Positions 31,901 to 51,040 of a stretch of 64,000 nt of DNA are shown one piece after another (positions within the stretch are counted from its first letter, which is position 1; the number at the start of each line of letters is the position of its first letter). Made by a program: the position numbers and the translations under genes. Source of the stretch: Haliotis rufescens (lineage: Eukaryota); contig NW_025964001.1 in assembly GCF_023055435.1 (NCBI RefSeq), forward strand, positions 10,788,001-10,852,000, in the 5' to 3' direction. The notes under the pieces were generated by a model. The model saw nothing but the letters and a program-made list of their open reading frames with translations, searched no databases and was not told the DNA's origin.

Positions 31901-34900
31901 TCACTGCATCGGAAGACAGGTTTTCTTGCAGTCTTCGATGTCGACGAAGTTGTTGTCGTTGCCGCCACACCCGCCGTAGATAAACGTCTCACACTCTTGT
32001 GAGGTAGGGTTGAAGTAGAACCGGCGAAACGCGGCCTTGCAAACCCCGGCATCAGGGCTCAGGTTACACACTGAGGGAAATATATGACAAAGTTAATGGT
32101 AACTCATTTCAGTGAGTGAGTGAGTTGGGTTTAACGCCGCTTTTAACAGTATTCCAGTTATATCACGGCGTGTCAGCTTAATGAGGGAGGAAAGCCCGAA
32201 GTGATGCAGGTCTCAGACGTTTACCACTTCGGTGAAACCCACGAGCACCATTAGACCACAGGACTGGTCAGAAGGTACCATGTTGAGCGAATATGTCCTA
32301 GCCAGATATATTTAACGGCCGTTTCTTTAGACTGTCGTAACGCACATTTATAAATCACATTAAACACATGTTAAAACATGTTCATACATAAGTCGGATAA
32401 AACGCTTCTCCTCGGTCTTTGGTTGACATAGTAAATCTTTCGGGCAGCAGTGGCTGAGTTGTAATAGACCGGTCTCAACCTCCCTCTGGTTTTACGATGT
32501 CAACCAAAGTTTACGTATAAACCTACCCTTACTAAAGTCGGTAGTATGAACTTACCTTCATCAGGAAGCTTGGTACCTAGCAAAACAAGAAAGGAAATAT
32601 AAGGAAATGTAGCCATGTGAAATAGTATGCAACCAAGCAAAATATGGAAGGAAACATACAAAAACCATTAAAGCAACCTCATTTAGATGAGATCTAAGTT
32701 ATCGCTAAACAAAGAACATTTCACATCAATGCAACAAAGGTATGTTTGTTTGTCACACATCAATATTCCAGCTCTAAGACGGCGCTTGTAAACTGAAAAC
32801 GCCAAGGCCATAGAATAATCAGTTTGGATCCCATTGGACATTATATGAATGGATCACTGAAAATCAGTGATGACACCAGGTGTTCTTGAGTGAGTGAGTG
32901 AGTGAGTTGGGTTTAACGCCGCTTTTAACATTATTCCAGTTATATCAAGGCGTGTCAGCCTTATGTGGGAGGAAAGCCTGAAGTGATGCAGATCTCAGAC
33001 GTTTACCACTTCGGTGAAACCCAAGAGCACGGGTATGGTGCTGACAAACCTAGAAACATAATCGGGGCGAACTCGGTTTTGAACCCACAATCATAGGTTT
33101 CTGGCGTGCCCAAGGGACGCAACTCTGCACAGCGAATCGCGGCGCCTTAGACGACTGGGCCACCCATGCCCCCCAAAAAGATCTGGGGACATTACGGGTC
33201 ACGTCAGAAAGACCTTTCATCCGACCAATCAGAGCGTCGCGGGGTATTCCGAACAACTGTTACAGGCTGTATGACTGATTCTGTCAAAATCATTGCCTGT
33301 CTCCCGCTTCAATGGGATAAACATTTGAAACGGAAGAAACTTTCCGTTACCCGTGGGAAATAAAATCTCGGCCATCTATCAAACATTCCAGAATTTTCTT
33401 TTGTTCAGTTTGCAGATTTTGCATCGAAAACTTTGTGAAAATGGAAGTCGCAATTCCGGTAAACAGGTCAAAGAATAGACTTATGTCGGTGGTATGAACT
33501 TACCTTCATCGGGAAGCTTGGTACCTAGCAAAACAAGGAACAAAACATAAGGTAATGCAGCCATCTGCAGTAGGACACAACCTAGCAAACTAGAAGAAAC
33601 GTACAACCTACCACTACGGGAGGGAAAAATAATGTAATTCAGCCATCTGAAACAGTACACATTCTAACAATACTTGGGAGACTTAATGTAATTCAGCCAT
33701 CTGAAACAGTACACATTCTAACAATACTTGGGAGACTAAATGTAATTCATCCATCTGAAACAGTACACATTCTAACAATACTTGGGAGACTTAATGTAAT
33801 TCATCCATCTGAAACAGTACACAATCTAACAATACTTGGGAGACTTAATGTAATTCAGCCATCTGAAACATTACACATTCTAACAATACTTGGGAGACTT
33901 AATGTAATTCATCCATCTGAAACAGTACACAATCTAACAATACTTTGGAGACTTAATGTAACTCAGCCATCTGAAACAGTACACATTCTAACAATACTTG
34001 GGAGACTTAATGTAATTCATCCATCTGAAACAGTACACAATCTAACAATACTTGGGAGACTTAATGTAATTCAGCCATCTGAAACAGTACACATTCTAAC
34101 AATACTTGGGAGACTTAATGTAATTCAGCAATCTGAAACAGTACACAATCTAACAATACTTGGGAGACTTAATGTAATTCATCCATCTGAAACAGTACAC
34201 AATCTAACAATACTTGGGAGACTTAATGTAATTCATCCATCTGAAACAGCACACAATCTAACAATACTTGGGAGACTTAATGTAATTCAGCCATCTGAAA
34301 CAGTACACATTCTAACAATACTTGGGAGGCTTAATGTAATGCAGCCATCTGAAATAGTACACAATCTAACAATACTTGGGAGACTTAATGTAATGCAGCC
34401 ATCTGAAACAGTACACAATCTAACAATACTTGGGAGACTTAATGTAACTCAGCCATCTGAAACAGTACACATTCTAACAATACTTGGGAGACTTAATGTA
34501 ATTCATCCATCTGAAACAGCACACAATCTAGCAATACTTGGGAGACTTAATGTAATTCATCCATCTGAAACAGCACACAATCTGACAATACTTGGGAGAC
34601 TGAATGTCATTCATCCATCTGAAATAGTACACAATCTAACAATACTTGGGAGACTTAATGTTATGCATCCATCTGAAATAGTACACAATCTAACAATACT
34701 TGGGAGACTTAATGTAATTCAGCCATCTGAATTAGTACACAATGTAACGATACCAGGGAGGCTTAATGTAATGCAGCAATCTGAAATAGAGCACAATCTA
34801 ACAATACCAAGGAAAATGTAATGACTCAGAAATGAGTGAGAGTGACTGTATAAATCATAAACAACCTCAGAAATCCGCACCAACAGGCAAGAAGACACCG

Positions 34901-34993
34901 TACGCTGTATAACTTACCATTGTCTGGAGACTGCTGACAGCTTAGCTCAGCAAGGAAGATGACAAAAGCTAAACAGACGACAACCTTCAACAT
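31901..34993 (-). CDS. Secreted single-domain BPTI/Kunitz protease inhibitor, P1 Lys (95 aa)
   Basis: Exons 34993-34918, 33524-33504, 32576-32556, 32070-31901, all phase-1 GT-AG: MLKVVVCLAFVIFLAELSCQQSPDN-GTKLPDE-GTKLPDE-VCNLSPDAGVCKAAFRRFYFNPTSQECETFIYGGCGGNDNNFVDIEDCKKTCLPMQ*. Six Cys and the FxYGGC motif; ATTAAA downstream at 31869-31864. Confidence 0.9.
32111..32248 (-). mobile_element. SINE family C, 3' half
   Basis: Partial match. Confidence 0.82.
32888..33175 (-). mobile_element. SINE family C
   Basis: Full-length match. Confidence 0.87.
33631..34820. repeat. 54-bp minisatellite, ~22 copies, in intron 1 of the P1-Lys Kunitz gene
   Basis: Unit AATGTAATTCAGCCATCTGAAACAGTACACATTCTAACAATACTTGGGAGACTT. 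Confidence 0.95.
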
Positions 34994-35054
34994 GGCAGAT
35001 GCGGACGCTTCAAGAACCTAGAGCAAATGACTTCGTGTATGATCGAAACACGAA

Positions 35055-35062
35055 CTATATAT
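35055..35062 (-). promoter_or_regulatory. TATA-like box of the P1-Lys Kunitz gene
   Basis: TATATAG on the - strand about 60 nt upstream of GCCATG. Confidence 0.4.
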
Positions 35063-35809
35063 CTTCTTAATCAAACAAGTCATTACACATCTGGCCTTTG
35101 TATCTTTTTTCCCATGGCAATTACTCTATTGAGGTGCAAGACGAAGTTTCGCTATCGCAGTACCAAGTCACGTCTCTGGTGCCAATTGATGCCAATTTGC
35201 CACACTGCTCAATAAACATCTATGTGCATGTGTGTTGAATGTGCACGGCTCTGCACTATGATGAGAACTATAGGCGTATCGGCACCTTCATACCGACCCC
35301 CGCCCACCTGTAGTGTCCCCTGTTCATGGGTACAGCTGGCCCCGTGGCTCCGGTACGTGCGTCTCCCACCATATGCTGCTAAACGTGAACAACACAGATA
35401 TTGTATTCTGTCAACTGCAACTTTCGTCATGTCGACATGGCTATTGCGTTCTTGTTTTGAGACCACACATTTGTCAAACTTATTTGTTATATATTCTAAA
35501 CTCTCACCACACGAATACTGTTTGACGATGTGCGTCACATAACAACTTGACTTGTTAATGATGACATCCACGACGGCGTAACGTCGCTGCCAGGAAAAGA
35601 AACGCTACATAAACCGAGACTACGATGACAGGGTAAGATGAACCGAGCTCGTTATTCTGCATTTCTCCATAAATCACGTATCGTATATTTACATTCATAT
35701 TTGTCAGTCTAACAGACGCCACATTCTGATTACACAAATTTCAGCCGTTGGATGACTATGAGTATCACGTCAGGCAGAGTATACCTCGCCCATCTGTAGG
35801 GTATCATTG

Positions 35810-36058
35810 TGTTTGCTGTTTAACGCTGCACTCAGCAATATTCCAGCTGTATGACGGCTGTCTGTAATATTCGAGTCTGGAACAGACAATCCAGTGATTG
35901 ATATCATGAGCATCGACCTACGCAATTGGAATACGATGACATGAATCAACCAAGTCAGCGAACCTGACCACCCCATCCCGTTAGTCACCTCTGACAAGCA
36001 TTATCGCCTGTAATGACAAACGCGGGTTACTGAAGACCTAGTCAACCCCGGATCTTCG
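35810..36058 (-). mobile_element. SINE family A
   Basis: Match to consensus. Confidence 0.82.
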
Positions 36059-49500: not shown

Positions 49501-49573
49501 AACTGAAAATCATAGATAGTAAAATTCAACGTCAACATTTATTATTCCAAAATATGTCATGAGAATTCCTATT

Positions 49574-50506
49574 TTACACCGCTTGACACAAAGCAACGCA
49601 ATCGGCTAGAGTTTGAAAGTTGTTTGCGTTAGCCCGGCAACCGCCATAGTAGAAGTTCTCACACAGCCCCGTGCTGGTGTTGTAGAAGTAGCGCAGGATG
49701 AGGGCTTCACATGGACCGACCACCTTAGGTAGATGGCAGGAAGCTGTAACAAGAATGGTGGATGTATCTGTAATTTGGCAACCTCGTCTCAGAAATATTT
49801 TTTGTTGGAATACGTTGTTATTTCATGGCTTTCACTCATTTGACTTGTCAAAGAAGTTAAAAAGAGTGAAGACTTCGTTTAGCCAGAAACTGGGGTAAGT
49901 TTAGTTGTTGGGCTTTTATCGTCTTTGAACTATTTCATGTGATGAGAGGCGCTGGTGTATGCAGCCTTGTGGTCATATAGTTCATGTAAAAATGTACAGA
50001 AACATGGGTCTGAATGCTTGAGTGTGACAAAGTAGACACGATTTATGGATAACAACTTCTTTAATTACTGTAAAGGAGACGTTTCGGTATAGATCCTTAC
50101 ACCGTTGTCAAGCAATATTTTGTCGTTTGTCATCTTCTAAGTAATGACTATCAAACAATGCATGCATGTGAGTGAATCGCTGCAAAACAACTTTGTCAAT
50201 ACGCATGCGCATTCGTAAGAATTATCAATTAGGACCTAATGTTTAGAGATTTTACTGGCGCGATTTAGAGCACTAAACAACTTAGAGTATGATATATTTA
50301 AGAGTATAACTCAATTCAGACTACTATTTGAAGCACCATGAGCAATGTGCAGTTTAAAGCACCACACAACGGAGAGCATGGAGCAGTTAAAAACGTCATA
50401 CAACTTGAAGCGTGGTATACTTTAAAGCTCCCCACGACTTGGAGCATGATGCCGTATAAAGCAACGTACAGCGTTAGAGCATGGTTTGATTTAAAGCTCC
50501 TAAAAG

Positions 50507-50592
<86 letters not shown>

Positions 50593-50636
50593 AGAAGAAG
50601 CGCCACATACCACTGCTGCCTGCTGAGAGAGCTCCG

Positions 50637-50672
<36 letters not shown>

Positions 50673-51040
50673 AGAAGAAGCGCCACATACCACGGCTGCC
50701 TGCTGAGAGAGCTCCGCGCGCACGCACACACACACACGCACACACACACACACCAGAAGAAGCGCCACATACCACTGCTGCCTGCTGAGAGAGCTCCGCC
50801 CACACACACGCACACACACACACACACACACACACGCCAGAAGACGCGACACATACCACTGCTGCCTGCTGAGAGAGCTCCGCCCACCCCCCACCCACCC
50901 CCCCCCCCCACCCCCCCACCCCCCCACCCCCACCCCCTCCACACACACACACACACACACCAGGAGACACGACACATACCCCTGCTGCCTGCTGAGAGAG
51001 CTCCGCCCACACACACGAGAAGAAGCACTGCGTGAAGCAT
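49574..51040 (-). CDS. Secreted single-domain BPTI/Kunitz protein, P1 Glu (76 aa)
   Basis: Exons 51040-50980 ([27 protein letters not shown]; preceded by a TTTTCAG acceptor at 51053) and 49743-49574 ([56 protein letters not shown]). AATAAA at 49543-49538. Confidence 0.87.
50510..50980. repeat. Compound (CA)n / exon-derived tandem repeat
   Basis: Units CCAGAAGAAGCGCCACATACCACTGCTGCCTGCTGAGAGAGCTCCGCC separated by (CA)n tracts. Confidence 0.92.

What the first reader, a model, noticed from the sequence alone, without database searches (positions are those of the whole stretch)
31901..51040. Tandem array of four secreted Kunitz genes whose reactive-site P1 residue spans Lys, Arg, Asp and Glu
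Seen: four co-oriented (- strand) genes, each with a signal-peptide exon and a phase-1 intron before the Kunitz exon. Three have a terminal exon of exactly 170 nt, and those three Kunitz exons are missing from the ORF track. The reactive loops read GVC-K-AAF, GYC-R-GYF / GLC-R-GLF, GPC-D-GLV and GPC-E-ALI. Established: the residue after the second Cys (BPTI Lys15) largely sets protease specificity. Inference: a duplicated family diversifying at its specificity site, forming a broad-spectrum inhibitor panel (defence, mucus or shell matrix) from charge-reversed paralogs.
Basis: partly seen in the sequence, partly recalled or inferred. Interest (0 to 1): 0.8.

Follow-up and report, generated by a model that had tools for sequence, protein, structure and literature searches.

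The report
Five-gene abalone Kunitz inhibitor cluster
This is an ordinary, old cluster of five small protease-inhibitor-type (Kunitz) genes of abalone: two likely block trypsin-like enzymes, and three carry an acidic tip residue that is common in this family and whose target is untested.

Summary
P1 order is Asp, Glu, Asp, Arg+Arg, Lys. Four genes match named Haliotis rufescens RefSeq proteins; splicing shows directly for A and C.

The reading 'young family diversifying its specificity site' is not supported. Synonymous sites are saturated or nearly so between all six domains. P1 is unchanged in 5 of 5 H. cracherodii orthologous domains. Gene E is closest (73%) to a cluster 19 Mb away.

Acidic P1 is not rare: 8 of 68 distinct domains in this genome and about 10-12% of 1,648 domains elsewhere. 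Tandem or paralogous Kunitz sets with mixed P1 are published. Abalone's proteomically known shell Kunitz proteins map to another locus.

What stays open: three neighbouring acidic-P1 genes keep a canonical binding loop, and no active acid-cleaving serine protease was seen in a partial survey of this genome. Low interest.

The parts
55888..55954 (-).
   Evidence: exon-1 letters are the loose end of contigs at 55284 in runs X1 and X5; RefSeq model P0009 has 17 more N-terminal residues
55108..55283 (-). Gene A Kunitz exon, 176 nt, loop GPC-D-GSF, P1 Asp codon 55251-55249
50980..51040 (-). Gene B exon 1 (signal-peptide-like)
   Evidence: RefSeq model P0001 has 16 more N-terminal residues
49574..49743 (-). 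Gene B Kunitz exon, 170 nt, loop GPC-E-ALI, P1 Glu codon 49708-49706
   Evidence: contigs of X1, X4, X5 stop at 49744 with further letters beyond
48417..48480 (-). Gene C exon 1 (signal-peptide-like)
   Evidence: joint 44518-48417 (3898 nt, GT..AG on the minus strand) in 4 of 4 runs, 3 studies; protein identical to P0003
44349..44518 (-). Gene C Kunitz exon, 170 nt, loop GPC-D-GLV, P1 Asp codon 44483-44481
   Evidence: predicted BPTI fold
41342..41347 (-). Gene D first coding exon (6 nt, Met-Lys), inferred
   Evidence: the H. cracherodii model P0123 begins the same way
39436..39487 (-). Gene D signal-peptide exon, 52 nt, phase-1 donor
36985..38267 (-). Gene D large exon: two Kunitz domains (P1 Arg at 38235-38233 and 37728-37726), an acidic Ser/Thr-rich linker and tail, 12 N-glycosylation motifs in the protein
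   Evidence: contigs stop at acceptor 38267 with further letters in 3 of 4 runs
34918..34993 (-). Gene E exon 1 (signal-peptide-like)
33504..33524 (-). Gene E 21-nt micro-exon, copy 1
32556..32576 (-). Gene E 21-nt micro-exon, copy 2
31901..32070 (-). Gene E Kunitz exon, 170 nt, loop GVC-K-AAF, P1 Lys codon 32038-32036

Best explanation
This is an old cluster of five Kunitz (BPTI-fold) genes of abalone, likely secreted, in which the Lys/Arg domains (D, E) likely inhibit trypsin-like proteases and the three Asp/Glu domains (A, B, C) likely present the same substrate-like loop to some other protease while binding trypsin, chymotrypsin and elastase only weakly. Shown: gene structure, six-cysteine Kunitz domains, splicing of A and C, deep divergence between the genes, and unchanged P1 in a close sister species. 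Inferred: secretion, the standard mechanism (P1 inserts into the S1 pocket), and every target. My odds for the acidic trio: weak, broad or pH-dependent inhibitors of ordinary proteases about 0.4; no protease target about 0.35; specific for acid-cleaving proteases about 0.2.
For: Pfam and fold: (gene C model pLDDT 84; TM about 0.85-0.89 to TFPI, boophilin and BPTI). All six domains keep Gly12, a small P1' (Ala/Gly), Gly-Gly-Cys of the second loop and Asn43. Age: dS saturated or at least 0.96 in 15 of 15 pairs. Conservation: P1 the same in 5 of 5 H. cracherodii domains; in gene D the Kunitz domains differ at 1 of 102 residues against 33 of 312 aligned linker and tail residues; gene A's P1 codon is unchanged in the 3 of 4 runs that cover it. 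Ordinariness: at least 85 Kunitz matches in the genome, in several clusters; acidic P1 in 8 of 68 distinct domains, 91 of 927 and 85 of 728 elsewhere. P1 rules and weak binding of acidic P1: passages of PMC9312475 and section 14 of PMC3426482.
Against: No activity was measured. Three acidic domains among six is more than a random draw (p about 0.02), though kinship of A/B/C explains it. The sister species is too close to exclude earlier bursts of selection, and 51-codon trees are poorly resolved (31 of 56 branches open). Acidic-P1 domains in general keep a small P1' less often (60%) than basic ones (84%), which fits many of them not being inhibitors at all. Tissue of expression is unknown.
Confidence: 0.68

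Rival explanations
1. One reading: a recently duplicated family under positive selection at P1 that builds a charge-reversed inhibitor panel.
For: Five co-oriented genes with the same phase-1 intron and similar exon sizes; one clade of all six domains is not rejected (p-AU 0.09); P1 spans K, R, D, E.
Against: Saturated dS; acidic-basic pairs only 39-45% identical, at the genome median; E's nearest domains (73%) lie at C223:29.97-29.98 Mb; P1 unchanged in H. cracherodii. The phase-1 acceptor just before the first Cys appears ahead of many other Kunitz exons in the genome too, so it marks the family rather than this array.
Confidence: 0.1
2. A, B and C are dedicated inhibitors of Asp/Glu-cleaving serine proteases, most plausibly microbial glutamyl endopeptidases met at mucus or gut surfaces.
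For: Three related neighbours (59-63% identical) keep an acidic P1 in a fully canonical loop and keep it in a sister species (B, C). The same loop pattern recurs in 24 of 97 short proteins from lizards, frog, insects, spider, snails and a zoanthid (sample biased by the query). Acidic-P1 domains keep a small P1' more often than polar-P1 domains (60% vs 41%).
Against: No paper showing this for an animal Kunitz domain came up in searches. No active endogenous candidate among 48 S1-protease C-terminal exons read: the one with Arg226 has Gln in place of His57. TKDP2 with acidic P1 has minimal antiprotease activity (PMC3426482; whether it was tested on a glutamyl endopeptidase is not stated there).
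Confidence: 0.2
3. The acidic-P1 proteins are non-inhibitory binders (mucus or matrix components, or receptor or channel ligands) that keep the fold only as a scaffold.
For: Published statements that acidic P1 gives minimal antiprotease activity and that not all Kunitz domains inhibit; the Glu-P1 zoanthid peptide PcKuz3 is described as neuroactive; an Asp-P1 domain is abundant in abalone shell matrix.
Against: The loop of A, B, C is fully canonical; their domain net charge is 0, 0 and -1, without the basic surface of channel-blocking Kunitz peptides (recalled feature); the shell proteins come from another locus.
Confidence: 0.3

Closest known systems
Kunitz/BPTI family (Pfam PF00014; MEROPS I2 as stated in PMC9312475)
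   Same: Six cysteines with 8-15-7-12-3 spacing, BPTI fold, canonical loop residues, one domain per exon in four of five genes.
   Different: P1 is Asp or Glu in three of six domains; no activity is measured for these proteins.
Ruminant CTI / PTI / STI / TKDP1-5 cluster (PMC3426482; passages and section 14 read)
   Same: Tandem secreted single-Kunitz genes with mixed P1, including an acidic one (TKDP2), and extra small exons between signal peptide and domain.
   Different: That cluster is young (about 25-35 My by the paper) and placenta-linked; here synonymous sites are saturated and the tissue is unknown.
Blister-beetle single-domain Kunitz panel (PMC9312475; passages read)
   Different: Insect transcripts with one acidic member, in silico only; genomic clustering not seen in the passages read.
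Haliotis shell Kunitz proteins KCP (PMC2989941, PMC6003135; passages and supplement searches)
   Same: Same genus and family; one variant has an Asp-P1 second domain (GPC-D-ADV) where another has Lys.
   Different: Two-domain proteins whose peptides match G000 C223:56.35-56.50 Mb (L008-L011), about 45 Mb from this window, not these genes.

Membership tests
Kunitz/BPTI (PF00014) | Profile match above the curated cut-off | tested here: met
   72-77 bits per single-domain exon, 115 for the two-domain exon; cut-off 21
Kunitz/BPTI (PF00014) | Six cysteines in BPTI spacing | tested here: met
   6 of 6 domains, spacing 8-15-7-12-3
Kunitz/BPTI (PF00014) | BPTI fold (hairpin plus C-terminal helix) | tested here: met
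   Only gene C was folded: pLDDT 84, best matches all Kunitz structures, TM about 0.85-0.89
Canonical (standard-mechanism) serine-protease inhibitor | Intact binding loop: Gly12, Cys14, small P1', Gly36-Gly37-Cys38 | tested here: met
   6 of 6 domains (position list recalled from BPTI numbering)
Canonical (standard-mechanism) serine-protease inhibitor | Measured tight 1:1 inhibition through P1 | not testable with these tools
   Needs assays
Trypsin-type Kunitz inhibitor | Lys or Arg at P1 | tested here: met
   Met for D1, D2, E; not met for A, B, C
Secreted protein | Cleavable signal peptide | tested here: inconclusive
   Hydrophobic N-termini by eye; no predictor run
Haliotis shell-matrix KCP | Sequence match to shell-proteome Kunitz peptides | tested here: not met
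   The peptides shown match L008-L011, not the window; supplement files 25-27 not searched and 19 of 31 places shown
Recently duplicated, positively selected gene array | Low dS between copies and P1 turnover between orthologs | tested here: not met
   dS saturated or at least 0.96; P1 unchanged in 5 of 5 orthologous domains of one close species
Venom Kunitz toxin (automatic RefSeq names 'actitoxin-like') | Venom-gland expression and ion-channel block | not testable with these tools
   The names are similarity labels; nothing here indicates toxicity

The most novel reading that the evidence does not exclude
Genes A, B and C are a conserved abalone sub-lineage of canonical Kunitz inhibitors aimed at Asp/Glu-cleaving serine proteases such as microbial glutamyl endopeptidases. 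They would stand for a widespread but unexplained subtype (about half of the 175 acidic-P1 domains sampled keep a fully canonical loop) and, lying beside Lys/Arg relatives, would give a ready test set for what acidic-P1 Kunitz domains do.
Probability: 0.18. Interest if true: 0.6.

Novelty: new member of a known kind. Interest (0 to 1): 0.2.

Why it matters
As a gene cluster it matters little: Kunitz clusters with mixed P1 residues are known and four of these genes are already automatically annotated. The one useful angle is general. Roughly a tenth of Kunitz domains sampled have an acidic P1, the papers read report them as weak against standard proteases, and my searches found no natural target. 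These three small, transcribed or annotated, canonical-loop proteins are cheap to express and assay. A positive result against glutamyl endopeptidases would define a new specificity class of animal Kunitz inhibitors, relevant to abalone defence against bacteria.

Tried and rejected
Endogenous acid-cleaving protease as target: a PF00089 search gave 147 matches from 150 of 298 candidates scored. I fetched 60 stretches and read 48 C-terminal exons. None has His213. One has Arg226 (C113, L132/L146), but its His57 is Gln, so it is likely a dead domain; rejected. The survey is partial, and residue 189 was legible for only part of the set.

A DNA pattern search for the protease motif was swamped by an interspersed repeat.

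Orthologs from distant abalones were not obtained. The gene B search returned one protein. The profile search listed 120 of 327 hits with one H. asinina protein, belonging to another locus. The 'longer' search and the representative search were crowded by multi-domain proteins. No site-model dN/dS was therefore possible.

Gene D's own H. rufescens protein record was not retrieved; D was matched only through the H. cracherodii model P0123.

No RNA holder was listed as such; the runs laid are contigs, so tissue and level cannot be read. Run X9 laid nothing on gene A, which is no evidence of absence.

The H. cracherodii fused models B+C and D+E are taken as likely annotation read-throughs, since each keeps the internal signal-peptide sequence; not tested.

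A full IQ-TREE run timed out; quick and FastTree trees disagree in detail. Trees used 59 distinct standard-spacing domains of the 75 parsed (85 matches; 10 not parsed).

No complex prediction was run: a Kunitz-protease pair would pass by likeness to solved structures and would not test P1 specificity.

Earlier-findings look-ups gave nothing relevant. PMC9175108 and PMC3721222 (passages) added nothing on acidic P1.
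Full report
Observation. A six-frame motif scan found six Kunitz domains on the minus strand, not five, and a genome-wide PF00014 search lists the same six inside the window. They belong to five co-oriented genes, named A to E from high to low coordinate. B (51040-49574) has Glu, C (48480-44349) Asp, D (41347-36985) Arg and Arg, and E (34993-31901) Lys. Every Kunitz exon follows a phase-1 GT-AG intron, and the last coding exons of B, C and E are 170 nt to the stop, as stated; A's is 176 nt. 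All pass Pfam's cut-off by a wide margin, and the model of C has the BPTI fold. The array is bounded by glycoside hydrolase 10 exons on the left, with no Kunitz match in the 40 kb to the right.

Are they real genes? A, B, C and E match named Haliotis rufescens RefSeq proteins; C and E match my models letter for letter, and the A and B records carry 17 and 16 extra N-terminal residues. E has isoforms with two or one of the 21-nt micro-exons. D was matched only by the N-terminal part of an H. cracherodii model. Contigs of public runs join C's two exons across the 3898-nt intron in 4 of 4 runs from 3 studies, stop at B's acceptor in 3 runs and at D's acceptor in 3 of 4 runs with further letters beyond. 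For A, the letters beyond the acceptor are exon 1 in 2 of 4 runs from 2 studies; a third run spans the intron unspliced and a fourth laid nothing. These are contigs, so tissue and level are unknown.

Is it a young, diversifying family? No sign of that. Acidic-basic pairs share 39-45% of 51 residues, the median among the genome's other domains being 43% and the 90th percentile 51%. A, B and C share 59-63% with each other. E's nearest domains (73%) lie in a cluster about 19 Mb away. Synonymous distance is saturated in 9 of 15 pairs and 0.96-2.9 in the other six; B-C has dN 0.24. Other clusters in this genome do hold young copies with dS 0.1-0.2, so the contrast is real. Trees from 153 columns are weak: a clade of A, B, C is not rejected (p-AU 0.63), and a clade of all six is also not rejected but fits 33 log units worse (p-AU 0.09). 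In H. cracherodii the five domains I could compare (B, C, D1, D2, E) differ at 2, 4, 0, 1 and 1 of 51 residues, never at P1, while D's linker and tail differ at 33 of 312 aligned residues. That indicates purifying selection on the domains, with the caveat that the species is close.

How unusual is acidic P1? The genome has at least 85 Kunitz matches. I parsed 75, of which 68 are distinct: P1 is Arg in 23, Lys in 11, Asp in 7, Ser in 7, Glu in 1, and other residues in the rest. Elsewhere, acidic P1 is found in 91 of 927 distinct domains from the 120 long proteins and in 85 of 728 from the 126 new proteins. Of the proteins with parsable domains, 52 of 107 and 44 of 121 carry both acidic and basic P1. 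These samples are multi-domain proteins, picked with queries from this window and not independent, so the 10-12% is a rough figure. Short single-domain hits with the same loop pattern come from lizards, a frog, insects, a spider, snails and a zoanthid (24 of 97, biased upward). Three acidic domains among six is above a random draw (p about 0.02), which kinship of A, B and C accounts for.

What is in print. PMC3426482 (passages and section 14 read) describes the bovine CTI/PTI/STI/TKDP cluster, reports Asp at P1 in opossum and possum ELP, and states that acidic-P1 domains such as TKDP2 show minimal antiprotease activity in vitro. PMC9312475 (passages) reports beetle paralogs with basic, non-polar and Asp P1, proposes the same panel idea, and notes that acidic P1 gives the lowest association constants among BPTI variants, with stronger trypsin binding at low pH. 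PMC2989941 and PMC6003135 (passages) report Kunitz proteins in abalone shell. In the supplements of the latter (files 1-24 searched, 25-27 not; 19 of 31 places shown; file 13 searched alone), the Kunitz peptides shown match loci L008-L011 at C223:56.35-56.50 Mb and include an Asp-P1 domain; none shown matches this window. Searches listed no paper on this cluster, and searches 24, 45 and 61 none showing an animal Kunitz inhibitor of a glutamyl endopeptidase; the library is limited to open papers.

Mechanism. All six domains keep the loop features of canonical inhibitors (that script's labels P3 and P2 are BPTI residues 12 and 13). By the established rule that P1 enters the S1 pocket, D1, D2 and E should inhibit trypsin-like enzymes, which are plentiful in this genome (Asp189 in many of the exons read); this is inference. 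D adds an acidic, Ser/Thr-rich, probably glycosylated linker and tail, which would suit a mucus or matrix setting; also inference. For A, B and C the acidic P1 predicts weak binding to trypsin, chymotrypsin and elastase. I looked for an endogenous acid-cleaving partner. Of 48 S1-protease C-terminal exons read, one has Arg at position 226 (the granzyme B feature, recalled), and that domain has Gln in place of the catalytic His; none has His213 (the glutamyl endopeptidase feature, recalled). The survey covers only part of the family (150 of 298 candidates scored). Across 1,648 sampled domains, acidic-P1 ones keep a small P1' in 60%, against 84% for basic and 41% for polar P1, so the class looks mixed: some working inhibitors, some not.

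Verdict. It is a new, uncharacterised member of a well-known kind. The residual interest is the general open question of what canonical acidic-P1 Kunitz domains bind, which these proteins could test. Interest 0.2.

Noticed in passing
window 50557-51006: Gene B's intron starts with an 82-bp tandem repeat that carries four extra copies of the exon-1 end and its splice donor. The H. cracherodii model has Ser where this one has Arg at the exon end, as the extra copies would encode.
   Followed up: partly
window 33630-34807: A 54-bp satellite of about 22 copies fills gene E's first intron, just upstream of the first micro-exon.
   Followed up: no
window 365-20663 (+): Exons of at least two tandem glycoside hydrolase family 10 (xylanase-like) genes, with near-duplicate exons at about 0.4/16.6 kb and 1.4/20.4 kb.
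   Followed up: partly
window 24445-25429 (+) and 51361-52371 (-): Two broken Tc1/mariner-type transposase remnants; the second lies between Kunitz genes A and B.
   Followed up: partly
P0002, P0123 (H. cracherodii models): The sister species' annotation fuses B with C and D with E into single proteins that keep the internal signal-peptide sequence; likely read-through or annotation artefact.
   Followed up: no
L022-L030, L047-L050 (G000 C587, C588): About a dozen near-identical Kunitz exons with Ser at P1 and Glu at P1' on two small contigs: a very recent amplification, or haplotype copies.
   Followed up: no
L008-L011 (G000 C223:56.35-56.50 Mb): Likely the locus of the abalone shell Kunitz proteins (KCP); two copies have an Asp-P1 second domain.
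   Followed up: partly
L146-L149 (G000 C113:6.26-6.30 Mb): LDLa repeats alternate with two trypsin-fold domains; the first has Arg226 and Gln in place of His57 (likely inactive), the second keeps its His57 and Ser195 motifs and Asp189.
   Followed up: partly
L052-L054 (right of the window): Long ORFs resembling a tyrosine-recombinase retroelement, then exons resembling a WD40 protein and a TCP-1 chaperonin subunit; judged by eye.
   Followed up: no
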